A stretch of DNA of 64,000 nucleotides from a virus. The notes beneath the pieces were generated by a model. It was not told the DNA's origin. It searched no databases and was given only the letters and a program-made list of their open reading frames with translations. A program made the position numbers and the translations under genes. Below are positions 10,121 through 62,376 of the stretch, in pieces; the stretch's first letter is position 1, and the number at the start of each line of letters is the position of its first letter. Location: IMG/VR virus record IMGVR_UViG_3300009285_003056. One strand, given 5' to 3'.

Positions 10121-13100
10121 TTATACTGTCTGGACCAGGAAAGCAGGATTGAAGTACACTCTGAGGGTTGACTCAGCAATAGCTACGGCTTGAATCTTCT
10201 CCCCTACTCCAATTGGTCTGGTGTGTGTCATCGTACCTGCTGCAGCGGGAGACAAGAAAAGCACCCCGCCAACAGTCCAACCCCATGTATCCAGACGGAA
10301 GTATCCCTGTCTCAATAGGGTGATTGAAGCATCCGCAATAGCGGCGACAGTTGCTAAGGCTGCTACTGGAGCCTTCACGGATGGGAAGGCATCACCAAAC
10401 GCCTTCCACCATTTCCCATCTGAATTCAAGTACAGGACATCGCCAGCGACTACAATCTCTCCCACTGTTCCAACTGTGGTTGTCCCCTGATATCCAAGAG
10501 TGGCACCCGGAGGGGACAACATGGTGTTGAGACCATTGGAGAGATCATAGACGATGCCATCTTCATCTACACACTTAGGCTTTTTGTCAGTTCCATAGTA
10601 GAAGGTGCCCTTAGCCAGGGTAAGCCCTGGGGCTGCCTGGGGTTCCAGTACCAATGTAGTGGGGTCGATGACACCCGGAACCGTCAACTTCCCTGTCACG
10701 GCGTTGTAGACCAACTGAAGTTGTGCCGGATTACCAAAGGTGACTTCCCCAGTTCCCGAACAATACACGTCGATAAAGGTGGGGAAAGTTCCTGCCTGAA
10801 AAGTAGCACCACCAGCTAGAGTAAAGTCTCCAAGGTCAGTATTGATAACAGGGTTGCTCGCTGTGATGTAGTAGATATCGGCAGCTGGCCCTCTATCATA
10901 TGTCTGGATAGTAATCACACCGGCAGGAGCCGATGCCCAAACCAATCCTCGACCCAAAGCATTAATTGTAATGACAACATCAGCAGCGGCGTCTCCAAGG
11001 GCGACGGGCACTGTCAATAGTCCCATAGGGGTACCAAAGTACAAAGTACCCGCTGCTGTACTGGCAATAGCAGCTACGGTCGCAGCAAGGGAAGCAGGGG
11101 TGGCATTCTGCCCCATTACTAAACGTACTGTGCCCTGTATCTGGCCAGCTTTGAGTGTGGCCGGTGTGGTGATAGCCACACTAGTATCCTCGTCGATTCC
11201 AGGGGCAAGCCAGATTCTACCTGTAGCGTCAGACCCCGCATGCACAGTATCACTGAGATAGCTACCCCCCTGAACGATTACAGGAGCAGCCAGTGGACCC
11301 GCACCGGCCCGGAAAGATGAGTCCCCACCTCGAATGATGGGCCACCCCACATGTCCATAGGACACCTGATTGGTACTCTGTGTCTGGATGCGCAGTCCAT
11401 AGTTATGGAAGAGGCCCCCATCTAGAATTGAAGCCCCCTGGACGATACCAGCCGGAAGAGAACGGGGATTTCCTGCCCCAGGTGTCAATTCAGCCGACCA
11501 AACCAACCAACCCATATTTGCTACTGGCCCTGCAGCCATCAAGTTGGGGTCAAGGTCGATCTCAGGAGTGTCAAAAACCCCCACTTTGATGTTACGCTCG
11601 ATATGCAAATTAGCATTCGTGTCGGCATAAGTTCCACCAGGAGTGGTGGAAACGGGGTGGGTCGACCCAGAGATACGCACCGCACTCTGATCTGCCACAA
11701 TCTCCCTACCAAGCCCTGCGCCTCTCGTAGGGGGTGTCAAGGATGAGAGACCATCATATGCTGCATCTAATCCTGAGTACCCACCTCCAAGTGCATTGGG
11801 GAGAGTGGAAATCATTACCAGATCGTCTATGGCATCCTGGGAGTTGGTTGATGCCAATCGCTGTGCTACAGGCACAGCAGGAAGACCAGCATGCACATCC
11901 CAGGGATCAGTTAGGTCTGGCACGTACCGAATAGACTTGCCTTGTGACTCGTAAGTAGACGTAGTTGGGTTTGCTGTGGGGAGAGTTACAGCTGTATAGA
12001 TGGTGTCCGAAAGCCTGAAAGTGGTGGCACCTGCACAGGCAGCCGTATCGAATGTTATGTTGCCTTCAACTGTGCAATTCCGCAGTGTGGCAGAAAGGGT
12101 CCCCGCTTTTGGCCCCCCATTGAACAACAGTGCGTTAGCTGCTGTCACCACAGATATCTTGGACTTTTCAAACAGGTTTATGGAAGCCAGAGAATGCAAC
12201 CCCACACAAGCAGCGGTCGTAGTGGAGATAGCAGCATCGACCAGATTGAAGGTGTAGTTAGTCGCCAAGGCGAGGTTATTCACTCGCATGGCGCTGGATG
12301 TAGCCCGGACAAAGGATCTGTCCAGTTCTGTGGTCCCTGTCACTCCATTGATCTCTACAGCATAGTGGGCGGCACCCGCTGTAGATGCATCTGAAATCAG
12401 GGTGCCATAGGTTTTGACCGTAATGGCAGCCGTGCCGTCCCCCATGACCAGGACAGAACCGCCCCCTACTGCCTGCTGTGCCAATACAGACTCAAAGAGG
12501 TAGAGAGATCCCGTGAGGGACGGAGCCAGGGCATCAATGGACAGTGTGTCAATGCCAGCAAGATTGGAAGTGAGAGTCACCCCCCGAAGAATGTAGACAT
12601 CCCCGGCTGCTGCACTGAAGAGCGTATGCCCGAGTGCCTGTGCTTGCACAATGACATCGGGAACATCGGTAGGGGTCTGTCCCTGAGTCTTATGCCCCAA
12701 TCCGATCAAGTGCACATGGGGGTGAAGGATCAAATCTTCCGAGTAGACACCTGGCTGGATGTAGATCAGATACGGTTCTGTAGCACTTACAGCGGGCTCC
12801 CCCCGGGCAGCAGCCGCAAGGGCATACGTGATCGCAAGATTGATACTACTGAAGTCCCCAAATCCTTGTGCTTTGACCGTTGCCCCTGTTGCTACCAGAT
12901 CCACAGGATCGGTGCCAGGAACCTCAAAGGTATTGGTCCGATCATCAGGGGTCTGTGTATTGTCCCAAGTAGAGCGGCCCCTATTGGCGTCGACCACTAA
13001 GATACGCCCGCTCGTGCTGACACGTCGAACAAAGAGCCCCAGCTTTTGGAGACTCAGGTTTTCGTCATTCGCCCAACCGGCCGTATCAATATCAGCTGGA

Positions 13101-13462
13101 ATCTGTTCGCTACCGTCATTCTTCTCTCCACCGGCTACAAGCCCAATGGAGCCAAACTTAGTCTCATACTGGACTCGCAGATATCTTGTATCCTCAGTGG
13201 GAAGTCCTGAATCCGTTACAAGGCGCACCATGTAAGCGCCTTCATAGTCCACCGTAAAAGCCGTTGCAATGGCATTAGGGGCCGTCATGGCGGCAGTAGA
13301 CGGGGTACCATCCATCGCTTCAGGGGCGAATGTCAGGGACCAATTGTACGTGGTATTGGGGCCTCCCGTACAGGTACAGGTAACCACGGAACCCTTATAC
13401 GCATCTGAACGGCTGGTAACTTGTACCACACCAAGAATGACTGTCTGGAACGCAGCTGACAT
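10121..13462 (-). CDS. Tailspike/fibre-like protein (1113 aa): N-terminal PKD/Ig-like domain, right-handed beta-helix region, C-terminal small beta domain
   Basis: GGAGG RBS. TTYNWSLTFAP...FTVDYEGAYMVRLV is PKD-like. EPYLIYIQPGVYSEDLILHPHVHLIGLG is a typical pectin-lyase-like beta-helix entry motif. The C-terminus GEIVVAGDVLYLNSDGKWWKA...GWTVGGVLFLS is of a type seen in phage fibre and decoration proteins. Confidence 0.6.
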   Translation of the reverse strand: MSAAFQTVILGVVQVTSRSDAYKGSVVTCTCTGGPNTTYNWSLTFAPEAMDGTPSTAAMTAPNAIATAFTVDYEGAYMVRLVTDSGLPTEDTRYLRVQYETKFGSIGLVAGGEKNDGSEQIPADIDTAGWANDENLSLQKLGLFVRRVSTSGRILVVDANRGRSTWDNTQTPDDRTNTFEVPGTDPVDLVATGATVKAQGFGDFSSINLAITYALAAAARGEPAVSATEPYLIYIQPGVYSEDLILHPHVHLIGLGHKTQGQTPTDVPDVIVQAQALGHTLFSAAAGDVYILRGVTLTSNLAGIDTLSIDALAPSLTGSLYLFESVLAQQAVGGGSVLVMGDGTAAITVKTYGTLISDASTAGAAHYAVEINGVTGTTELDRSFVRATSSAMRVNNLALATNYTFNLVDAAISTTTAACVGLHSLASINLFEKSKISVVTAANALLFNGGPKAGTLSATLRNCTVEGNITFDTAACAGATTFRLSDTIYTAVTLPTANPTTSTYESQGKSIRYVPDLTDPWDVHAGLPAVPVAQRLASTNSQDAIDDLVMISTLPNALGGGYSGLDAAYDGLSSLTPPTRGAGLGREIVADQSAVRISGSTHPVSTTPGGTYADTNANLHIERNIKVGVFDTPEIDLDPNLMAAGPVANMGWLVWSAELTPGAGNPRSLPAGIVQGASILDGGLFHNYGLRIQTQSTNQVSYGHVGWPIIRGGDSSFRAGAGPLAAPVIVQGGSYLSDTVHAGSDATGRIWLAPGIDEDTSVAITTPATLKAGQIQGTVRLVMGQNATPASLAATVAAIASTAAGTLYFGTPMGLLTVPVALGDAAADVVITINALGRGLVWASAPAGVITIQTYDRGPAADIYYITASNPVINTDLGDFTLAGGATFQAGTFPTFIDVYCSGTGEVTFGNPAQLQLVYNAVTGKLTVPGVIDPTTLVLEPQAAPGLTLAKGTFYYGTDKKPKCVDEDGIVYDLSNGLNTMLSPPGATLGYQGTTTVGTVGEIVVAGDVLYLNSDGKWWKAFGDAFPSVKAPVAALATVAAIADASITLLRQGYFRLDTWGWTVGGVLFLSPAAAGTMTHTRPIGVGEKIQAVAIAESTLRVYFNPAFLVQTV

Positions 13463-13496
13463 GGAAAACCTCCTCTACTTGCTACCTACTCAAGCC

Positions 13497-15002
13497 TTAG
13501 ATAAAGAAAAACGATGATGCGTCCTCTGTACCCACTAAATGAGCTTCCTGCATCCCCAACCGATCTACAGTCACAGTATAGGACTGTCCTGTTAGTACAT
13601 TTGCCATCCTCTTCTGTAACCTCAAGATGCTCTTAGCGAGTCGTACTTTGTATGTGGGGTAGATAACTTGCCCCTTAACTCCCCCTATGCCAGGGGCACC
13701 CACCGTAAAGGTAGTGGAGGACGGAACAGTGGCCACATTGTGGAAACCATTCAAAGTCACGTCGGAATGGCCCACGATTCGAATTGCACTGTACCCGGAC
13801 AACACTTGAAGATCATGTGGCTGAGTGGTCGTAAAGAGGGCGTCCGGAGCAGCGGAAGACCCGACGATATCTAACCCTATGGGATCCCCCACAGGACCAT
13901 GTGTTTTCTCTCCTAACAATGTCTGAAGCCGATACGTCTCAGAACCCGTCGTGAATGCAAAGGTAATAGTTGTACCCTCCGGTAATCCGGACATATCTAC
14001 GTTTGTAGTGATTACATCTCCGGTGATGGAGGCAGTACCAGTTACGGTAGCAGACGTGGTAAATGCTACAGTAGATGTCCGATCTCGACTGATGGGAAAG
14101 GCCACTGCTTCCACCACCCGGAATACCCCCACATTCGCCCCACTGGTGATAGTGAGATTCGACCCAGGCAGGATATTGGAGAAATCCCGGGTCAGATCCT
14201 GGAATAGACTCCTATCCGAAAGGGTCACACCAACCGTCCCTGACAGATGTTTGGCCCCCAACCAATACCGCCTGAAATCATCGTAGTAATGTGCATTCAA
14301 GTCCATGGAAAGGCTATCAGTGAACACGGGAACCAGGGAATCCTGGAAGACATGCCGGTATTCGTAGATCGTTTCAGCCGGGGCCAAAACATCCAAGACC
14401 AACTTCAGGTTCTCCTGTAGGGTTACCGGATCTACCGGAAATTGGGTGCCATTTGCTACAGAGATGTTGACTTCATAGAGGAATTCATCAGATAGGGCAT
14501 AGCCCGATTTGGGATCGGATCGTCGTTCAATGCTCGCCTCAACGACAGACATGAGATCATCTGTCAAGAGTCCCACGGCCTGCTCAATAGTGAGTTTGGT
14601 CCCACCCGCTAAGAGCAATGCCACCATGCCCTTTAGGAACTCTCGATAAGAGATATCCCCAGAGATGGTTGGATTGTTGCCGTCCTGTCGTCTGAAGATC
14701 AGACTCCGCAATATCTGGTGGATGAATTCAGGCCGGGTAAAGTCATAGTCGGAGTCAGAGAATACCTCGGATGCGGACACTTGAATACGGGCCATTTCCT
14801 CAGCAGCCGCTTGAAACTGCATGGTATAGAAAGGCCCTTTCACTTGACTCACATAGTTCGATGGGAGCAAACCCATGAAGGTCTTGAGCGTCTTCTCAGC
14901 CAATGCCTTGACCTTAGACTCATACTCTTGTCCAGAGAGGCTGACAGAAGCTACTCCAGACGGTAATGAATCAGGAAGGGTCTTGTCAGGACGGTCAGCC
15001 AT
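13497..15002 (-). CDS. Baseplate wedge protein, P2 gpI / tail protein I-like (~501 aa)
   Basis: Probable start MADRPDK at 15002; the track's upstream extension overlaps isrB. LPSNYVSQ...YDFTRPEFIHQILRSLIF...YREFLKGMVALLLAGG...LDVLAPAET is a gpI-like pattern, and the gene sits in the expected position after baseplate J. Confidence 0.6.
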   Translation of the reverse strand: MADRPDKTLPDSLPSGVASVSLSGQEYESKVKALAEKTLKTFMGLLPSNYVSQVKGPFYTMQFQAAAEEMARIQVSASEVFSDSDYDFTRPEFIHQILRSLIFRRQDGNNPTISGDISYREFLKGMVALLLAGGTKLTIEQAVGLLTDDLMSVVEASIERRSDPKSGYALSDEFLYEVNISVANGTQFPVDPVTLQENLKLVLDVLAPAETIYEYRHVFQDSLVPVFTDSLSMDLNAHYYDDFRRYWLGAKHLSGTVGVTLSDRSLFQDLTRDFSNILPGSNLTITSGANVGVFRVVEAVAFPISRDRTSTVAFTTSATVTGTASITGDVITTNVDMSGLPEGTTITFAFTTGSETYRLQTLLGEKTHGPVGDPIGLDIVGSSAAPDALFTTTQPHDLQVLSGYSAIRIVGHSDVTLNGFHNVATVPSSTTFTVGAPGIGGVKGQVIYPTYKVRLAKSILRLQKRMANVLTGQSYTVTVDRLGMQEAHLVGTEDASSFFFI

Positions 15003-15036
15003 GGCGCACCGGACTCGAAAATTTGTCAAGCATGCT

Positions 15037-16077
15037 TTATCTCCAATGCCATCTAAGGGCATTATACGACACAAATTTGCACTCGGATGGACGCACCACT
15101 TTGGTGAGTCGCTTCCCAGTGCCTATTGAATGCAAGCTGATTCTCTCGTTTGACGTGCCGCCTACATACGCAAGTCCGTACCGGGGGTGTTGCACGAGTG
15201 TTCCTCTCCTGAAACCCATCGATCTGGTACCACCATGTGATCTTCTCAAACCACCTTTAGCTGGTACCTCCAAATGCAATGCCCGTCTCCGGTAATCCAG
15301 AGGGGCTATGCACAATAAGCGCCCCGATGTAGGCTGTCGTTTTATTCCCAGCCCATAAAGGGCTAGGACAAAACTGTCCACACAATGGGCATCAAAGACT
15401 TCGTCCATCTTCCTTGACGTCTTTTTCAGCCCAAGGTCATCCCTCAAAGCCTTAGTCTCATATCCCGCAATCAAAACCAAGGGGAGATTCAGGACACCAA
15501 TTTGATTAGCAAAATAGGTCTTTCCTGCCTCCAAAGGCGAGAATGACCGATTCCACTTATGTTGGCCTTTCTTGGTGGTTGCCTTGATGTCCTCAATTAC
15601 CACCTTGGCGATTGGGTAGACTCTCATCAACGCTTTGACTATGGTGAGTTTCCAATCCCATCGGGCCTTCGTTGACGGCGGGATACGATCCTGTGGCATT
15701 GACCGATTGCTACGATTAACCCGGCAAGGCGTATTCCTGCCCCGCCGTGCCCGGCGCAGTATCGCCCTGCTCTCTAACTTTTCCTTGATCTTGGTTTTGG
15801 CATCCAACTGAATGTGAATTAGGTCTGTGAGTTCTGTAAGAACGGACACGCCTTCTTTCTTTGAACCTGGATCAACCCCAATGACCACAGGTTGGATCAC
15901 ATAACCAGATGGCTCTACATTGAGTCGGGCACAGAAGATACCGAGTTCGTTCACGAACGGGGTTGCCTTCCGTGTCGAGACCCACAACTCCACCCGCCTT
16001 CTTCGTGCTGGCATAAGAGGTTTGCCTTGAGATGAGACCACAGGGATTCTCTTGGCGAGTGATGGAAAAGACTTCAT
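15037..16077 (-). CDS. isrB: IsrB-family RNA-guided nickase (RRXRR/PLMP domain, split RuvC, no HNH), ~346 aa
   Basis: PLMP motif (IPVVSSQGKPLMPARRRR), RuvC-I IGVDPGSK, Arg-rich bridge helix LESRAILRRARRGRNTPCR, RuvC-II VVIEDIK and RuvC-III FDAHCVDS. No HNH/CxxC insert lies between RuvC-II and III, and the size fits IsrB rather than IscB. The 49 extra N-terminal codons in the track correspond to the RNA region. Confidence 0.85.
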   Translation of the reverse strand: MKSFPSLAKRIPVVSSQGKPLMPARRRRVELWVSTRKATPFVNELGIFCARLNVEPSGYVIQPVVIGVDPGSKKEGVSVLTELTDLIHIQLDAKTKIKEKLESRAILRRARRGRNTPCRVNRSNRSMPQDRIPPSTKARWDWKLTIVKALMRVYPIAKVVIEDIKATTKKGQHKWNRSFSPLEAGKTYFANQIGVLNLPLVLIAGYETKALRDDLGLKKTSRKMDEVFDAHCVDSFVLALYGLGIKRQPTSGRLLCIAPLDYRRRALHLEVPAKGGLRRSHGGTRSMGFRRGTLVQHPRYGLAYVGGTSNERISLHSIGTGKRLTKVVRPSECKFVSYNALRWHWR

Positions 16078-16079
16078 GC

Positions 16080-16286
16080 CTGTAAGAGCAGCAAGTTTTT
16101 CCATCTTCGCCACTGACCCTGACAGAAGTACAGAGCTTGACGAGCACTCCGTACATGCTTGCCCTGCTGTTGCCGTACCGGCAATAGCTTCGCAGGATTC
16201 AGTTGAGGTTCTAACGGTTTCCATCCCTCCCTCTTAGGCTAATCCCAGTACTCTGAAACCCAATCTTTCAAGTTTCATCCGGAATT
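16080..16286 (-). ncRNA. omegaRNA scaffold of IsrB (5' guide predicted immediately upstream, about 16287-16306)
   Basis: Read on the minus strand: 5' stem AATTCCGG (16279-16286) / CTGGGATT (16241-16248) followed by AGCCTAAG; a 9-bp stem GTACGGAGT/GCTCTGTAC (16128-16154) whose loop TCGTCA can pair with downstream TGGCGA (16107-16112) as a pseudoknot. This arrangement matches IscB/IsrB omegaRNAs as I recall them. Confidence 0.75.
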
Positions 16287-19200
16287 CTCTGTATCCTCGT
16301 CATAAGTCAGAGAGATATCCCCGGCTGTAAGATACTCCACCGCTGTGGTTCGGATATCCTGCACCCCCGTAGACTCCTCAACCTTATAGGTAACTGCATA
16401 CGTATAGTCCGTGGGGTCCCCACCTGTGGGTAACGAAATCAGGACTCGATTCTTGGTCAACAGGACGCCTTGGGCATAGCGTTCGTTCACATCCGTCATG
16501 TCCGGGAAGTCAATCTGGAGTGTGGCATCATCTGAATACCCCGGGATGACTAGCCCGTCATTTCCAACGATGTAGGCATTTCCACTCTGCGCTTTGAGGG
16601 GCATACCCAGAGAGTTCAACGTGCCCGTGAGTAGATTCAAGGCTGTCTCATCCTGTGTGACCCCCCGGAATTCTGTGATTGCCCCGCCCCCATTACTGGT
16701 AGGAGACGACAGTACGTCTTTGATCAGGTACACATCTACCAACGATGTGCCCCAGGCAGTGATCTTCTCCAGATCTCCGCTCTCGCTGGTATCCAATGTC
16801 TCTGCCAGCACCGTAGTCCCAACTGCCCGAGCTACAGTCGTAAGGGGGACCACTACGTAGGAGACTCCCGTAGTCTTCTTGATGGTTTCGATTACATCCG
16901 AAACTCGGAGGGGCGATCCTAAGCCTTTCTTGGCGAACATGGATGTGATGTTGGTTCTGATAGCCCGATCCACTACAGACGGATCAGAACCCTTCAAGAG
17001 AACCACCGTTGCCCCCACATCTACTAGAGTCTTGATCGCCTGCTTGACCACCACATCGGCAGTCAATCTCCGCTGTGGCTCCAGGTCAGCCTGGACGATA
17101 GACACTAGGGCATTGGATCGGTAAGCAACAGTGAAGTTCTCGTCATGCTCATAGTCGATCAGAAGAGACTGTCCAGAAGTGATTGTGCTCGTCTCCGTCC
17201 GTTGAATGCCGATTGCTGCCACACTGGGGTCACTGGGAACGATGATCCGATAATCAGGGGTGAGTACTCCAGTGGCAACAGGCTGATACTGGACTGTTCG
17301 CCCCACATTCCAAACTTCGATGGTGAGGATATTAGACCCAAAGAAATTCAGGTACTCTACGTAGTCCCCTAGGATGACATGAGTTTCCCCGGTCACAGTG
17401 ATAATCTGCCCGATTCGCCCAGAGGCAGTGGGGGAGTCGACCTGAATGTAATCGTCTGCCATTGAGGAGAGGCCCAAGAGAAGAGGGTTATCTTGTCTGT
17501 AAAGGGCATAGGTATCCGGGTCCACCGTACCCGTAGCTCCTGTTTCCCCAATCAGAGAGACCAGAGCAGTCACGGGCTGCCTGGACATAATGTGTTTGTT
17601 GCTGGTCCGATACCTGTAATCCCCCTGGAGTACATCTGTGAGCGTGACATTAGCAGGATCATTGTAGGCACTAGATAACTGAATGGTATCAAAAGAAGGG
17701 TAAGTGACTCCTGTAAGGCTGAACCACATACCAGACGTGACACTACGGAAACCCAACGGCGGCGTATTGGCTGGGAAATCCAACATCTCGACTAGAGGGT
17801 TCGACGGTGTCAATGTCGGATAGGTGCCCACAACAGGTACGGCTCTGAAGGTCAAATCTTGGGGGTCCCCCACGATCTCAAAATTGACCCCATAGGCGAT
17901 CTCGTAGGTGAATGCAAAGGTGTCTGAAACCGTGGCTGAATTTTCCCCACGTACCCAAATGTCGACCTTGCCCCCGATGTGCCGCCCCAATGTGGAGTCA
18001 TAATCCCTCTTCATCAGGGCATCCCCACTGGGGATTACATTGACACCTGAAACCCCCGCCATATTGACACAGGCTTCCGTGTAACCTTGTCGAGTCCCAC
18101 CATCCAGCCCCGTGAGAGCCCCCTGGCACCGTACAGCCAGCTCCCGATTGGACTCCCTGTTGTACCCGCCATACGTCTTTGCTTCGTTGGTAACGAAAAC
18201 ACCTGTGATACCACGAACACCCGTAATTTGCCCAGCGGGCACATTTCCGCCAGTCCCCACTTCTTCCGCCTGGATGAAAGCCCTGACGGAATATCTACCC
18301 GTGGCAGCATTGTAGAAAGACGCAATGTTGGAGATACTGATCTCGGCGGCAGAAGATGTCCGAAATAGAACAGAGCCACTATAGGCAATGGTACCAATCG
18401 GAATGGGTATACTCCGACTGGGCCGTTTGGTCGTGTAAAATGTGGCCTCACCCTTAGCCAATTTTCCTAGTAGCCTGGACTTCCCGTAATTGGACGCCAA
18501 CTTCTCGAAGATAGAGTCGATGACTGTCTGTACATCGTTCAGGTTGGACATCCTGAATGCCTGTGCTAAGGCAATCTTATAGTTGGACCGATCCGGGGCA
18601 ATCGAGAATCCCGTGAAGTTGGGGTCATCTATAGCCAAGAGCGTGGAGAATGACTGTGCCTTATGGATGAAATCCAGTATGAACCTAACTCGTTCTGCCT
18701 CTGTGGAGAACGGATCCAGGAAAGTATCCCGCAACACCGATCCCGGCTGTGTGGACACCCCAGGGTTCGACCTATAAATGGACACAACCCCATCCTTCAC
18801 GATTTGGGGTCGAGTTACCATGGGGAAGGAACCCACCGAAGTCGTAATCCTAAGAGGATATCCGGGGATCTCCATGGACATCGGGGACTCAACCTCTACT
18901 GCAATCGTAGAGTCATAGTAGACAGCCGTTACAGTGTAGTAGATGGGCTCTGTCTGAGGCGTAGACGCCAACTCTCCTACAGGGATAGCTGGATAAGTAG
19001 ACGTGGTGTCTGCATTCCGATCATGAAAGAAGTAGTAGGTAGACGTATCCTTCACAGAGGAGACAGTTGTATGGATACGTATCTTCGTGACGGTCTCGGG
19101 AATGTTCACCCGCTCGTTGAAATCCATCTCCAAGGTGGTTCCGTTCCGATCCTCTTGCGACCCTTGGATACGAAAGAGCTGTGGGTCTGCAAGTGGAATT

Positions 19201-19790
19201 CCGTTGGTATCTACTGCGACCGTGGCATCAACGTCTAACTCCCCCAACTCGCTCTCATCTTCTCCTTGTACGCTCTCCAGGGTTGTAATTGTATTGACAT
19301 TGATCCGATGGTATCCTGTAGAACCGCCTCCGGTCGCTGTAGCAGCGTAGAAATTGTATCCTGTGACTAGTGTACTGTCGATGCCACTTACACCCACCTT
19401 CACGAGCCCATCCATCTTCTCTACCGTAATCCCTGTGGGGGCCTGGACCACTAGGTTCACATCGTTTGCTTGAACCAATCTTACTGTGACAGTGGCTTCT
19501 CCAGATGTATCCCCTGTCGTGTTGATGGAACGAACTTTGATGGTGTTGTCCCCAGGCAACAATTGCAACCCATCTGGATACTTGGATGGGTTGGGGACTG
19601 TGAAGGAGGCCCCCTCGAAAGTAATCAGATCAGGATCGTCCTCGAAGGCACTCCCAAATGCTGATATTTGCATGTAGATGGTGTCAGCATCTATAGACCC
19701 CGTGAAGAATCGAGTGGAGACGGTGGTGTGGAAAATGAACGTCTCCCGATAGACTCCATCAGGACCAAGGAATTTGGGTGTCGTCGCCAT
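16275..19790 (-). CDS. Baseplate J-like wedge protein (T4 gp6 / P2 gpJ family) with N-terminal Ig/FN3-like extension, 1171 aa
   Basis: AKGEATFYTT...IPIGTIAY...VRAFIQAEEVGTGGNVPAGQIT...VTNEAKTYGGYNRESNRELAVRCQGALTGLDGGTRQGY is the Baseplate_J signature. The gene follows the gp25-like gene. Confidence 0.85.
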   Translation of the reverse strand: MATTPKFLGPDGVYRETFIFHTTVSTRFFTGSIDADTIYMQISAFGSAFEDDPDLITFEGASFTVPNPSKYPDGLQLLPGDNTIKVRSINTTGDTSGEATVTVRLVQANDVNLVVQAPTGITVEKMDGLVKVGVSGIDSTLVTGYNFYAATATGGGSTGYHRINVNTITTLESVQGEDESELGELDVDATVAVDTNGIPLADPQLFRIQGSQEDRNGTTLEMDFNERVNIPETVTKIRIHTTVSSVKDTSTYYFFHDRNADTTSTYPAIPVGELASTPQTEPIYYTVTAVYYDSTIAVEVESPMSMEIPGYPLRITTSVGSFPMVTRPQIVKDGVVSIYRSNPGVSTQPGSVLRDTFLDPFSTEAERVRFILDFIHKAQSFSTLLAIDDPNFTGFSIAPDRSNYKIALAQAFRMSNLNDVQTVIDSIFEKLASNYGKSRLLGKLAKGEATFYTTKRPSRSIPIPIGTIAYSGSVLFRTSSAAEISISNIASFYNAATGRYSVRAFIQAEEVGTGGNVPAGQITGVRGITGVFVTNEAKTYGGYNRESNRELAVRCQGALTGLDGGTRQGYTEACVNMAGVSGVNVIPSGDALMKRDYDSTLGRHIGGKVDIWVRGENSATVSDTFAFTYEIAYGVNFEIVGDPQDLTFRAVPVVGTYPTLTPSNPLVEMLDFPANTPPLGFRSVTSGMWFSLTGVTYPSFDTIQLSSAYNDPANVTLTDVLQGDYRYRTSNKHIMSRQPVTALVSLIGETGATGTVDPDTYALYRQDNPLLLGLSSMADDYIQVDSPTASGRIGQIITVTGETHVILGDYVEYLNFFGSNILTIEVWNVGRTVQYQPVATGVLTPDYRIIVPSDPSVAAIGIQRTETSTITSGQSLLIDYEHDENFTVAYRSNALVSIVQADLEPQRRLTADVVVKQAIKTLVDVGATVVLLKGSDPSVVDRAIRTNITSMFAKKGLGSPLRVSDVIETIKKTTGVSYVVVPLTTVARAVGTTVLAETLDTSESGDLEKITAWGTSLVDVYLIKDVLSSPTSNGGGAITEFRGVTQDETALNLLTGTLNSLGMPLKAQSGNAYIVGNDGLVIPGYSDDATLQIDFPDMTDVNERYAQGVLLTKNRVLISLPTGGDPTDYTYAVTYKVEESTGVQDIRTTAVEYLTAGDISLTYDEDTENSG

Positions 19791-61356: not shown

Positions 61357-62376
61357 TTACTCCTCTTGCAGAGCCTGAATCAGCAGTCCATAGGCTACCG
61401 CATTGAGTGGATCCTTAGCCATCCGTATCTCTGAGATAGGGATAGGAAATCGTTTCCGTTTAGCCTCGAATACCTGAGTGAAGAAGTCTAGGAATCCGCC
61501 CGCTAAAGCCGTGCCACCTGAAACCACCATCGGGATAGGACTAGGAAGGGCAAATCTCGACCGTATCTTGTCAAACTCACTGGCAATGTGGTCAAGAGCG
61601 TATTCGACCATCGCCCTATAGTAAAAGACGATAGCTTCCTGCTCCCTGCCTGCAGGCTTGTTGAGATCAACACCAGCCTCTTTGATGGCACAGATACGAG
61701 CTTGGGTAGAGCCCACGGAGTTAGCAGCGCCGGAATCAATCCAATCGCCACTCCTGGCCACACTGAAGCTCAGACCTTCCATAGTATTCACACTGAGGGC
61801 ACAATTTGTCATCCCAGCCCCGAATGAGATACTGAGCCCACTGAAATTCTCCTTAGCCGTCTCACTAAATATGATCGCCATAGCCTCGTTTGCAGGGTGG
61901 GCAGTGTACCCACATTCTTGGATGATTCGTCGGAATACTTCCCGATGGTAAACGATGTCTTTCCCAGGTTGATCAATTGGGGGGGCCGGGACGGAATAGT
62001 AACAGGTTTCCCCCGGAACTAATGGTTCGCCCAAGACATTCTTGACCAACAGACCAAGAACTTCAAGGGAATCAGTTTCAGATGGAGAGATCAAACCCCC
62101 ACTCAGAGGGCGTCTGGCAACCCGACCAAAAACGTTAGCCATCTCCAGAGCTGCATCCCCTAGGACAAGAATTTCATCACCCCTCTCTACGAACTGTGTG
62201 TTCCCCATCTTGAGCATCTTCTTTGCCGTGATAGGGAAGTCAAGGAACACATCTCGTATCCTCTTGGTGACAATCCCGTCTGAACTCTTACGGGCCGATA
62301 AAACATTCATAGTGCCCAGATCCGTACCACAACCCGGCTGCAAAACCAACCCGTTCATCTTGTCCTTGTTAGGCAT
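61357..62376 (-). CDS. Actin-fold ATPase (MreB/FtsA/ParM-like superfamily), 339 aa
   Basis: All five actin motifs are present in order: phosphate-1 GTDLGTMNV, connect-1 ANEAMAIIF, phosphate-2 SISFGAGMTN, adenosine VVSGGTALAGGF, connect-2 DPLNAVAYGL. Confidence 0.85.
   Translation of the reverse strand: MPNKDKMNGLVLQPGCGTDLGTMNVLSARKSSDGIVTKRIRDVFLDFPITAKKMLKMGNTQFVERGDEILVLGDAALEMANVFGRVARRPLSGGLISPSETDSLEVLGLLVKNVLGEPLVPGETCYYSVPAPPIDQPGKDIVYHREVFRRIIQECGYTAHPANEAMAIIFSETAKENFSGLSISFGAGMTNCALSVNTMEGLSFSVARSGDWIDSGAANSVGSTQARICAIKEAGVDLNKPAGREQEAIVFYYRAMVEYALDHIASEFDKIRSRFALPSPIPMVVSGGTALAGGFLDFFTQVFEAKRKRFPIPISEIRMAKDPLNAVAYGLLIQALQEE

What the first reader, a model, noticed from the sequence alone, without database searches (positions are those of the whole stretch)
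15037..16286. IsrB OMEGA nickase element inserted inside an essential phage baseplate operon
A seemingly intact IsrB (PLMP, all three RuvC motifs, bridge helix, no HNH) with a recognisable omegaRNA sits between baseplate J and baseplate I, co-oriented with late transcription and without tnpA. IsrB is known mainly from bacterial IS200/IS605 elements. A copy in the late operon of a jumbo phage would be expressed during infection and could act like an RNA-guided homing endonuclease, or may have been domesticated.
Basis: partly seen in the sequence, partly recalled or inferred. Interest (0 to 1): 0.8.

Follow-up and report, generated by a model that had tools for sequence, protein, structure and literature searches.

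The report
IsrB guide-RNA nickase element in phage baseplate operon
An intact IsrB gene with its own guide-RNA scaffold, a small selfish element of the family that gave rise to Cas9, sits exactly at the junction of two baseplate genes of a very large groundwater phage; this is real and tidy, but such elements are already known in phage genomes.

Summary
Window 15037-16224(-) encodes a full-length IsrB. It has the PLMP motif, an Arg-rich bridge helix, invariant RuvC D/E/H..D residues and no HNH. The best solved relative is DtIsrB (8DMB), by sequence (E 2e-38) and by fold (TM 0.80/0.84).

The roughly 200 nt upstream are an omegaRNA. A covariance model built only from other relatives hits 16295-16100(-) over its full length (31 bits, rough E 3e-6). 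The first 59 "codons" of the annotated ORF evolve like RNA, so the real start is probably ATG 16077 (346 aa).

The scaffold starts at about 16285, inside the last codons of the Baseplate_J-like gene, and supplies that gene's stop codon. The guide is therefore the 3' end of J.

Related phages have J directly abutting the next gene, which is the empty site. A second copy, 83% identical in DNA, lies elsewhere, probably in the same genome. No tnpA was found.

Best reading: a resident, non-autonomous IS200/IS605-type OMEGA element acting as an RNA-guided nickase for its own retention or homing.

It is not new in kind. At least 97 IMG/VR loci, several isolated phages and a PHROG family carry IsrB-like genes, and a published cyanophage carries an IsrB insertion. 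Interest is moderate.

The parts
16286..16305 (-). Inferred guide segment of the omegaRNA: the last ~20 nt of J coding sequence immediately 5' of the scaffold. It is unique in the window.
   Evidence: In canonical relatives the element and scaffold begin exactly at scaffold nt 1 and the guide is flanking DNA (Meers 2023). The 19-mer occurs once in the window at up to 3 mismatches. The guide length is inferred.
16080..16285 (-). omegaRNA scaffold. P1 is AAUUCCGG (16286-16279) paired with CUGGGAUU (16248-16241). It is followed by the CUUGAAA motif (16272-16266), the UAGCC pseudoknot strand, AACUGA, a long hairpin, the GUACGGAG/CUCUGUAC hairpin and CAGUGGCGAAG. It overlaps the last codons and the TGA stop (16277-16275) of J.
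   Evidence: CM R1, built from 38 relatives outside this clade, hits 16295-16100(-) at 31 bits, rough E 3e-6, over the full model. The window forms 16 of the 21 pairs of the 3' helices. The family structure covaries. Window versus L001 shows compensatory changes in the hairpin. Codon-position identity is 90/86/90%, i.e. non-coding constraint.
15037..16077 (-). IsrB coding sequence, probably 346 aa starting MKSFPSLAKRIPVV. The annotated 395-aa ORF starts at 16224 and its first ~49-59 codons overlap the omegaRNA.
   Evidence: Homologues are typically ~335 aa and cover aa 60-395. The core ORF has codon-position identity 85/92/66% against the second copy, which indicates purifying selection. The AF2 model has pLDDT 81.6 and its best fold match is 8DMB IsrB.
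15003..15042 (-). 3' tail of uncertain status. Either it is the outer end of the element (TnpA-sense LE), ending just before the next gene's ATG, or it is phage intergenic DNA. A 6-bp hairpin AATGCC/GGCATT (15063-15045) lies just inside the ORF end.
   Evidence: Homology with the second copy stops at 15043. The tail is 49% identical to L001's tail, which is not above shuffles. Canonical relatives carry a ~50-60-nt tail after the stop codon.
14999..15002 (-). Candidate TAM (ATGG on the IsrB strand). It is also the start codon of the downstream gene, if the element ends at 15003.
   Evidence: This is an inference from the empty-site reconstruction and from the five clade members, all of which are followed by ATGR. 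The family TAM is NTGA. Support is weak.
16275..19790 (-). Upstream Baseplate_J-like gene (1171 aa). Its last 3 codons and its stop codon are encoded by the element.
   Evidence: Pfam Baseplate_J E 2e-17 and phrog_6 baseplate wedge E 2e-26. Comparison of C-termini with L018.
13497..15002 (-). Downstream conserved structural gene (501 aa), syntenic partner of J in related phages.
   Evidence: Homologues at 45-51% identity lie directly after J in L018, L020 and L021. It has no family hit and only weak Tail_P2_I/Wedge leads.

Best explanation
This is an intact, non-autonomous IS200/IS605-type OMEGA element of about 1.2-1.28 kb, spanning window 16285 to 15043-15003 on the minus strand. It consists of an omegaRNA scaffold followed by an IsrB nickase gene. 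It is inserted at the junction between the Baseplate_J-like gene and the next structural gene of a very large groundwater phage. Late transcription running out of J reads into the element. The transcript therefore carries the last ~20 nt of J as the guide, fused to the scaffold. IsrB, translated most likely from ATG 16077, binds this RNA. The complex would recognise an uninterrupted J/next-gene junction, either in an element-free genome copy or in a co-infecting relative, and nick it. On replicating phage DNA a nick becomes a break that is repaired from the element-bearing copy. This retains or spreads the element (homing). Movement to new sites would need a TnpA supplied in trans. What is shown: the identity of the protein and the RNA, selection acting on both, insertion relative to related phages, and a second diverged copy. 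What is inferred: guide length, TAM, nicking, homing, and the exact 3' end.
For: Protein:
- RRXRR/PLMP domain present and no HNH.
- 8DMB IsrB is the best hit by sequence and by fold, TM 0.80/0.84.
- The catalytic D, E, H and D are invariant.
- Codon-position identity against the second copy is 85/92/66%, showing purifying selection.

RNA:
- The independent CM hits over its full length.
- The family structure covaries: 95.8% of cells paired versus 66.6% in shuffles and 36-46% in slid controls.
- The window forms 16/21 pairs of the 3' helices.
- Compensatory changes separate the two copies.
- Identity by codon position is a flat 90/86/90% over the first 59 'codons'.
- The P1 stem changes from GUCA/UGAC in canonical relatives to AUYCC/GGGAU in all five clade members, and the CUUGAAA motif is kept.
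- The 5' modules of the two copies are homologous, with indels (56% identity; 1/200 shuffles as high).

Insertion:
- L018 has the same gene order with the J stop overlapping the next ATG.
- L021 has the two genes abutting.

Second copy:
- It has 85% aa and 83% nt identity and sits in another context.
- Contig loose ends fall exactly at 16246 and 15043.
- Depth is equal in two runs and coverage is equal in one assembly, 12.37 versus 12.71.

Architecture:
- Copy pairs within single genomes of relatives start exactly at scaffold nt 1 and end at [AC]TGA[TAC]. This matches Meers et al..
- No promoter-like or terminator-like site lies between J and IsrB.
Against: - No expression or activity data exist.
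- Rfam HEARO gives no hit in the window. It also reaches only 28 bits (gathering score 83) on a canonical relative.
- The CM score for the window is the lowest of the clade, and the canonical P2 hairpin is missing.
- The sequence next to either candidate 3' end is ATGG or AGAT, not the family's NTGA.
- No TnpA-type hairpin is evident in the tail, and no tnpA was found, so present-day transposition is doubtful.
- No element-free allele of this phage was seen, so there is no known target for homing.
- A nick is a weaker trigger of recombination than a double-strand break.
Confidence: 0.7

Rival explanations
1. The element is a domesticated phage tool. The phage keeps IsrB and its omegaRNA for its own benefit, for example to nick and exclude competing related phages at their J/next-gene junction, or as an RNA-guided regulator, rather than for the element's own spread.
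For: The window's IsrB falls in a clade (99% SH-like support) whose members with known context sit in phage-like loci, and its nearest neighbours are IMG/VR rows. Two diverged copies are kept under purifying selection. The element is present in every contig of this phage, across 6 studies.
Against: The guide is simply the flanking sequence, as in any mobile IscB/IsrB element. The catalytic residues are intact, unlike domesticated nuclease-dead relatives such as TldR (own knowledge). Exclusion of competitors and homing are the same reaction, so this reading is hard to separate from selfish homing.
Confidence: 0.12
2. The element is a passenger that no longer works. It inserted at a harmless junction, is transcribed passively and is slowly decaying. 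Its omegaRNA 5' module (no P2 hairpin) and its 3' end (no TnpA hairpin, no NTGA) are already degenerate.
For: The window has the lowest CM score of the clade (31 bits). The P2 hairpin is absent. The tail is not alignable with the second copy. No tnpA was found.
Against: The ORF is full length with all catalytic residues and shows a clear purifying-selection signature. The RNA core is 88% identical between the copies, with compensatory changes. The reduced 5' module is shared by the whole clade and P1 is preserved, so it is a lineage trait rather than decay of this copy.
Confidence: 0.1
3. The element is a recent accidental hop of a host IS into the phage, as reported for cyanophage Mic1. It would then be a transient and mildly harmful insertion of bacterial origin.
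For: A host IsrB element inserted into Mic1 gp49 at ATGA, carrying 207 bp upstream and 59 bp downstream (PMC11237433). IsrB is abundant in bacteria (more than 584 loci).
Against: The element is found in all contigs of this phage from runs dated 2014-2017 in 6 studies. The second copy is 17% diverged in DNA and sits at equal depth. The closest relatives are in phage-like contexts, not in the bacterial genomes sampled. GC content is unchanged across the element.
Confidence: 0.08

Closest known systems
DtIsrB-omegaRNA OMEGA nickase (Desulfovirgula thermocuniculi; PDB 8DMB; Altae-Tran 2021, Hirano 2022)
   Same: It shares the domain order PLMP, RuvC-I, bridge helix, RuvC-II, RuvC-III and a C-terminal beta domain, with no HNH. 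The full-length fold matches at TM 0.80/0.84. The structured guide RNA is encoded upstream and runs into the ORF start.
   Different: Only 29% identical. The omegaRNA 5' module is reduced: there is no P2 hairpin and P1 is AUYCC/GGGAU instead of GUCA/UGAC. The sequence next to the insertion is ATGG or AGAT rather than NTGA. The element resides in a phage structural operon. Activity is untested.
IS200/IS605-family IscB elements of Geobacillus stearothermophilus (Meers et al. 2023, PMC10055086)
   Same: The scaffold is derived from the transposon end and the guide lies outside the boundary. The upstream gene is co-oriented and supplies transcription. No tnpA lies in cis, as for about 98% of iscB genes. 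The logic of targeting the element-free joint is the same.
   Different: Those elements are IscB (with HNH, making double-strand breaks) in a bacterial chromosome, with a demonstrated TnpA in trans and a TTCAT TAM. Here the enzyme is IsrB (a nickase) in a phage, with no TnpA identified and no clear TnpA hairpin at the 3' end.
IsrB element inserted in cyanophage Mic1 gp49 (PMC11237433), and RRXRR genes of phages AgentSmith, Ma-LMM01/MaMV and LR745208
   Same: These are IsrB-type genes with about 200 bp of upstream RNA region inside tailed-phage genomes. The AgentSmith copy lies beside virion structural and tail-fibre genes.
   Different: The Mic1 insertion disrupts a gene and is described as coming from the host. 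The window's element sits precisely at a gene junction, leaves both neighbouring ORFs intact, donates a stop codon to J, and belongs to a clade seen so far only in phage-like contexts.
Free-standing and intron-encoded phage homing endonucleases (T4 Seg/Mob; nicking HNH enzymes such as I-HmuI)
   Same: A small nuclease gene is wedged between conserved essential phage genes. The presumed target is the uninterrupted conserved junction in a co-infecting relative. Nicking enzymes are known to drive homing in phages (own knowledge; review PMC13565253).
   Different: Target recognition here would be by an RNA guide copied from the flank, not by protein-DNA contacts. The families are unrelated.

Membership tests
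IsrB (OMEGA RuvC-only nickase) | N-terminal PLMP domain (Pfam RRXRR) | tested here: met
   PF14239 matches at E 6e-34 over aa 60-221. PLMP lies at 16020-16009 and is invariant in the homologues.
IsrB (OMEGA RuvC-only nickase) | Split RuvC domain with catalytic D (I), E (II) and H..D (III), plus an Arg-rich bridge helix | tested here: met
   D118, E211, H280 and D283 are invariant in 22 (A3) and 43 (A9) sequences and align to the DtIsrB motifs. The RRARRGR segment is a predicted helix.
IsrB (OMEGA RuvC-only nickase) | No HNH insertion between RuvC-II and RuvC-III (this distinguishes IsrB from IscB) | tested here: met
   No HNH domain is found in Pfam. Only 69 aa separate E211 and H280. The protein is collinear with IsrB 8DMB, whereas IscB structures align with large gaps.
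IsrB (OMEGA RuvC-only nickase) | Overall fold of a solved IsrB | tested here: met
   AF2 model pLDDT 81.6. 8dmb_P ranks first, E 2e-26, TM 0.80/0.84.
IsrB (OMEGA RuvC-only nickase) | Cognate omegaRNA encoded immediately upstream on the same strand | tested here: met
   Custom CM R1 hits 16295-16100(-). Non-coding constraint and compensatory changes are seen. Family covariation is strong.
IsrB (OMEGA RuvC-only nickase) | RNA-guided, TAM-dependent nicking of the non-target strand | not testable with these tools
   This needs biochemistry.
Rfam HEARO RNA (RF02033) | Score at or above the gathering threshold (83 bits) | tested here: not met
   There is no hit at E<=1 in 13000-19000. A canonical relative reaches only 28 bits, so the model does not cover this IsrB branch.
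IS200/IS605 transposon | Y1 (HUH) TnpA in cis or in the genome | tested here: inconclusive
   No Y1_Tnp was found among the window ORFs scanned. The rest of the genome is not held. Absence in cis is normal for iscB-type elements.
IS200/IS605 transposon | Defined ends, with a subterminal hairpin at each end and insertion next to a short TAM (NTGA on the IsrB strand in this family) | tested here: inconclusive
   The 5' end at 16285 is supported. A hairpin GAAAC/GUUUC lies about 10 nt inside that end. The 3' end is ambiguous between 15043 and 15003. The adjacent sequence is AGAT or ATGG rather than NTGA, and no clear tail hairpin is present.

The most novel reading that the evidence does not exclude
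This would be a phage-resident lineage of IsrB elements (window, its second copy, L188, L189, L195) with a trimmed omegaRNA 5' module. It would no longer depend on TnpA and would spread among co-infecting large phages by RNA-guided, nick-triggered homing. It would settle precisely at gene junctions, just upstream of the next gene's ATG(R) start, where it can donate a stop codon to the upstream gene and so be harmless inside essential operons.
Probability: 0.25. Interest if true: 0.65.

Novelty: new member of a known kind. Interest (0 to 1): 0.4.

Why it matters
RNA-guided homing by OMEGA nucleases has been shown for bacterial transposons. For phages it has only been proposed. Phages are where classical homing endonucleases thrive and where co-infection provides element-free targets.

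This locus is a clean natural test case for three reasons:
- The guide is a conserved coding sequence of an essential baseplate gene.
- Both neighbouring ORFs stay intact.
- A second, diverged copy exists in what is probably the same genome.

It also offers a compact (346-aa) IsrB with a shortened omegaRNA 5' module, which could interest people engineering small nickases.

IsrB genes in phage genomes are already present in databases and in at least one paper. The value therefore lies in the detailed anatomy and in testability, not in a new kind of system.

Tried and rejected
1. Rfam 'evalue' scan of 13000-19000: it found no HEARO or other relevant family, only a chance flavivirus xrRNA match at E 0.09.
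2. Search for a closely related element-free allele: the viral and metagenome scans with the 501-aa protein returned only relatives at 40-51% identity. blastn against GenBank phages found only a 128-nt weak match.
3. Public runs: all 15 holders are kept as contigs and no RNA holder is listed. Laying 4 runs showed no contig joining across the element. The runs holding 0.36-0.49 of the words are simply thin and patchy.
4. Motif scan of IMG/VR for GGGATTAGCCTA..: the 5 hits were all chance matches without an IsrB.
5. TnpA search in the contigs of the second copy: those records are not held and were not searched. The window's own assembly is not held.
6. 'Short element' model (ends at 16246 and 15043, insertion into the loop of a pre-existing phage hairpin). 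I considered it because homology with L001 and the contig loose ends stop there, and because L001's flanks form a 9-bp inverted repeat. I rejected it for the 5' end for four reasons. P1 (AUYCC/GGGAU) and CUUGAAA recur in all clade members from unrelated loci. Both match canonical scaffold features. The 5' modules align above chance. CTTGAAA is not a general motif of this phage. The model remains open for the 3' end.
8. Similarity between the phage's intergenic hairpin family and the element ends: it is not above shuffles, except for one 13-mer.

Full report
**Observation.** The window carries a 395-aa ORF at 15037..16224 on the minus strand. It lies between a 1171-aa gene at 16275..19790(-) and a 501-aa gene at 13497..15002(-). 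The larger gene matches Pfam Baseplate_J (E 2e-17) and PHROG 'baseplate wedge subunit' (E 2e-26). Upstream of J lies a gp25/sheath-initiator-like gene. Every large ORF of the 64-kb window is on the minus strand. GC content does not change across the element.

**The protein is an IsrB.**
- Pfam gives RRXRR (PF14239, E 6e-34) and nothing else. NCBIfam guided_IscB matches only the N-terminal half, below its cut-off, as expected for a protein without HNH.
- The best solved relative by sequence is DtIsrB (8DMB; E 2e-38; aa 56-356). IscB structures match only the N-terminal ~110 residues well.
- In alignments of 22 and 43 homologues, PLMP, the RuvC-I Asp, the RuvC-II Glu and the RuvC-III His..Asp are invariant.
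- An AlphaFold2 model (pLDDT 81.6, pTM 0.75) has 8DMB IsrB as its top fold match over the whole length (TM 0.80/0.84). IscB structures and then RuvC resolvases follow.
- Only 69 residues separate the RuvC-II Glu from the RuvC-III His, which leaves no room for an HNH domain.

**The omegaRNA.** Rfam's HEARO model finds nothing in the window. However, it reaches only 28 bits (gathering score 83) on a canonical relative, so that negative result says little.

I collected 160 loci encoding relatives from IMG/VR and from bacterial genomes. Copy pairs within single genomes show the family's element architecture:
- The repeat begins exactly at GTCA[AC]T.ACCCC, about 213-226 nt before the VPV codons.
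- It runs through the ORF and carries a ~50-60-nt tail with a hairpin.
- It ends at [AC]TGA[TAC].

This agrees with the published picture: the scaffold derives from the transposon end, the guide lies outside the boundary, and the family TAM is NTGA.

A covariance model built from 38 such RNAs, none from the window's own clade, gave these results:
- It hits the window at 16295-16100(-) over the full model (31 bits, rough E 3e-6).
- It hits the second copy and the four clade relatives at 40-63 bits.
- The family structure covaries strongly: 95.8% of cells are paired, against 66.6% in shuffles and 36-46% when partners are slid.
- The window forms 16 of the 21 pairs in the 3' helices. The five missing pairs belong to a hairpin that this clade replaces with a longer one.

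Independent evidence comes from comparing the window with its 83%-identical second copy (L001):
- The core ORF shows codon-position identities of 85/92/66%.
- The first 59 'codons' of the annotated ORF show a flat 90/86/90%.
- The GUACGGAG/CUCUGUAC hairpin carries compensatory changes.

The N-terminal extension is therefore RNA under structural constraint. The true start is probably ATG 16077 (346 aa), which matches the ~335-aa length typical of the family. I cannot exclude translation from 16224.

**Where the scaffold starts.** Homology with L001, and the loose ends of assembled contigs, begin sharply at 16246. That first suggested a shorter element. Four observations move the start to about 16285.

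1. In canonical RNAs the 5' GUCA.. pairs with ..UGAC just before UAG[AC]C. The window clade has GGGAU before UAGCC. A matching AUCCC (AUUCC in the window) lies 35-55 nt upstream in all five members, which come from unrelated loci.
2. The nearly invariant family motif GGCUUG.AA recurs as CUUGAAA between the two strands. It is not a general motif of this phage.
3. The 5' modules of the window and L001 align at 56% identity with indels, matched by only 1 of 200 shuffles.
4. J's C-terminus ...TYDEDTEN aligns with L018's ...TYDEDVDE. The J-derived sequence therefore ends at about GAGAA(T), and the codons TCC GGA TGA come from the element.

The MFE fold also pairs AUUCCGG with CUGGGAU. I reached it independently and tested it against relatives.

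**Insertion relative to related phages.** L018 and L019 (about 50% aa identity) keep the gene order 301/359/1173/497/1131 aa, with the J stop overlapping the next ATG (GAATGACGG). L021 has the two genes abutting. The window has the same order plus IsrB.

The simplest empty-site reconstruction is ...GATACAGAGA|ATGGCTGACC. It gives J ...TENG* overlapping the next ATG by 8 nt, an element of 1283 nt (16285-15003) and ATGG next to it.

An alternative uses the homology end at 15043. It gives J ...TEKIKHA* and a 23-nt spacer. The tail does not align with L001's tail above chance, so the 3' end stays open.

Neither option shows the family's NTGA. All five clade members are followed within 13-34 nt by ATGR of the next gene. 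I treat that only as a lead.

**Second copy and population.**
- P0002 (85% aa identity) lies between a PARP-domain gene and a block containing Apyc1- and SET-domain genes, on a 140-kb contig.
- Both copies occur in the same samples, and at equal coverage in one assembly (12.37 versus 12.71).
- They sit at equal depth in two laid runs (about 50 versus 53, and about 14 versus 16). They are therefore probably in one genome of at least 200 kb.
- Depth over the RNA core is 3-4 times that of the flanks, so further copies may exist. This is a lead only.
- The element is present in every contig carrying this locus, from 6 studies. No element-free allele was seen.

**Relatives and novelty.**
- The window, L001, L189, L188 and L195 form a clade with 99% SH-like support, whose nearest neighbours are IMG/VR rows.
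- L195 lies between primase-like genes and an intein-bearing PolA gene. P0004 lies beside another intein-bearing gene.
- IsrB-like genes are nevertheless common in viral contigs: at least 97 loci, including contigs of 327-485 kb.
- They also occur in isolated phages, namely AgentSmith (next to virion and tail-fibre genes) and Ma-LMM01/MaMV, and they form phrog_32617.
- An IsrB element inserted in cyanophage Mic1 at ATGA is published.
- A 2026 review lists homing between co-infecting phages as a possible OMEGA mode.
- Co-orientation with the upstream gene and absence of tnpA are typical of IscB-family elements.

**Mechanism.** No promoter-like or terminator-like site separates J from IsrB. The guide-scaffold RNA is therefore most likely made from the late operon transcript. 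The guide (16305-16286) is unique in the window.

In L018 the corresponding junction matches the TAM-distal 12 nt but differs in the TAM-proximal 7-8 nt. Only close relatives would therefore be targets.

I rate the selfish retention/homing reading at about 0.7. The rivals are a domesticated competitive tool (0.12), an inert passenger (0.10) and a recent host-derived accident (0.08).

**Verdict.** This is a new member of a known kind, with a neat and testable anatomy.

Noticed in passing
window 61357-62376 (-): A 339-aa ORF matches Pfam Volactin (PF25216) at E 1e-67 over its full length. This is an actin-like protein family described from archaea, encoded here beside the structural genes of a large phage.
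   Followed up: no
This resembles the omegaRNA P1 stem (AUCCC/GGGAU). The 59.6-kb copy shares TGGGATTGGCCTA with the omegaRNA's TGGGATTAGCCTA (12 of 13). Other comparisons with the element ends are not above shuffles. The match could be a remnant of an element end, or chance.
   Followed up: partly
L001 7965-7973 and 9182-9190; window 16272-16266 and 15020-15014: In the second copy, a perfect 9-bp inverted repeat (GTTAACTCA / TGAGTTAAC) links the omegaRNA 5' module to the sequence just after the IsrB ORF. In both copies CUUGAAA can also pair with UUUCRAG in the tail. This is unexplained. It may reflect long-range pairing of the element's ends, or insertion into a hairpin.
   Followed up: partly
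L001 (JGI 3300025073 contig, 140 kb), around the second IsrB copy: The neighbourhood carries a PARP-domain gene, an RNase H-like gene, an Anti-Pycsar Apyc1/metallo-beta-lactamase gene and a SET-domain gene. It looks like an accessory or counter-defence region, probably of the same phage.
   Followed up: no
L195 4223 onward; P0004 locus: Clade relatives of this IsrB sit directly upstream of genes that already carry inteins with LAGLIDADG homing endonucleases, such as PolA. Several kinds of selfish element therefore cluster in the same essential phage genes.
   Followed up: no
window 16156-16279: Summed contig depth over the omegaRNA core is 3-4 times that of the flanks in two runs. A third indel variant appears at 16217-16221. 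This hints at more than two copies of the element in the community or genome.
   Followed up: no
window 16224-16078 (-): In four of the five clade members, an SD-like purine run (AAGAGGGAGG) and an in-frame ATG open an N-terminal extension across the omegaRNA. The extension evolves like RNA, but translation of a longer IsrB isoform is not excluded.
   Followed up: partly
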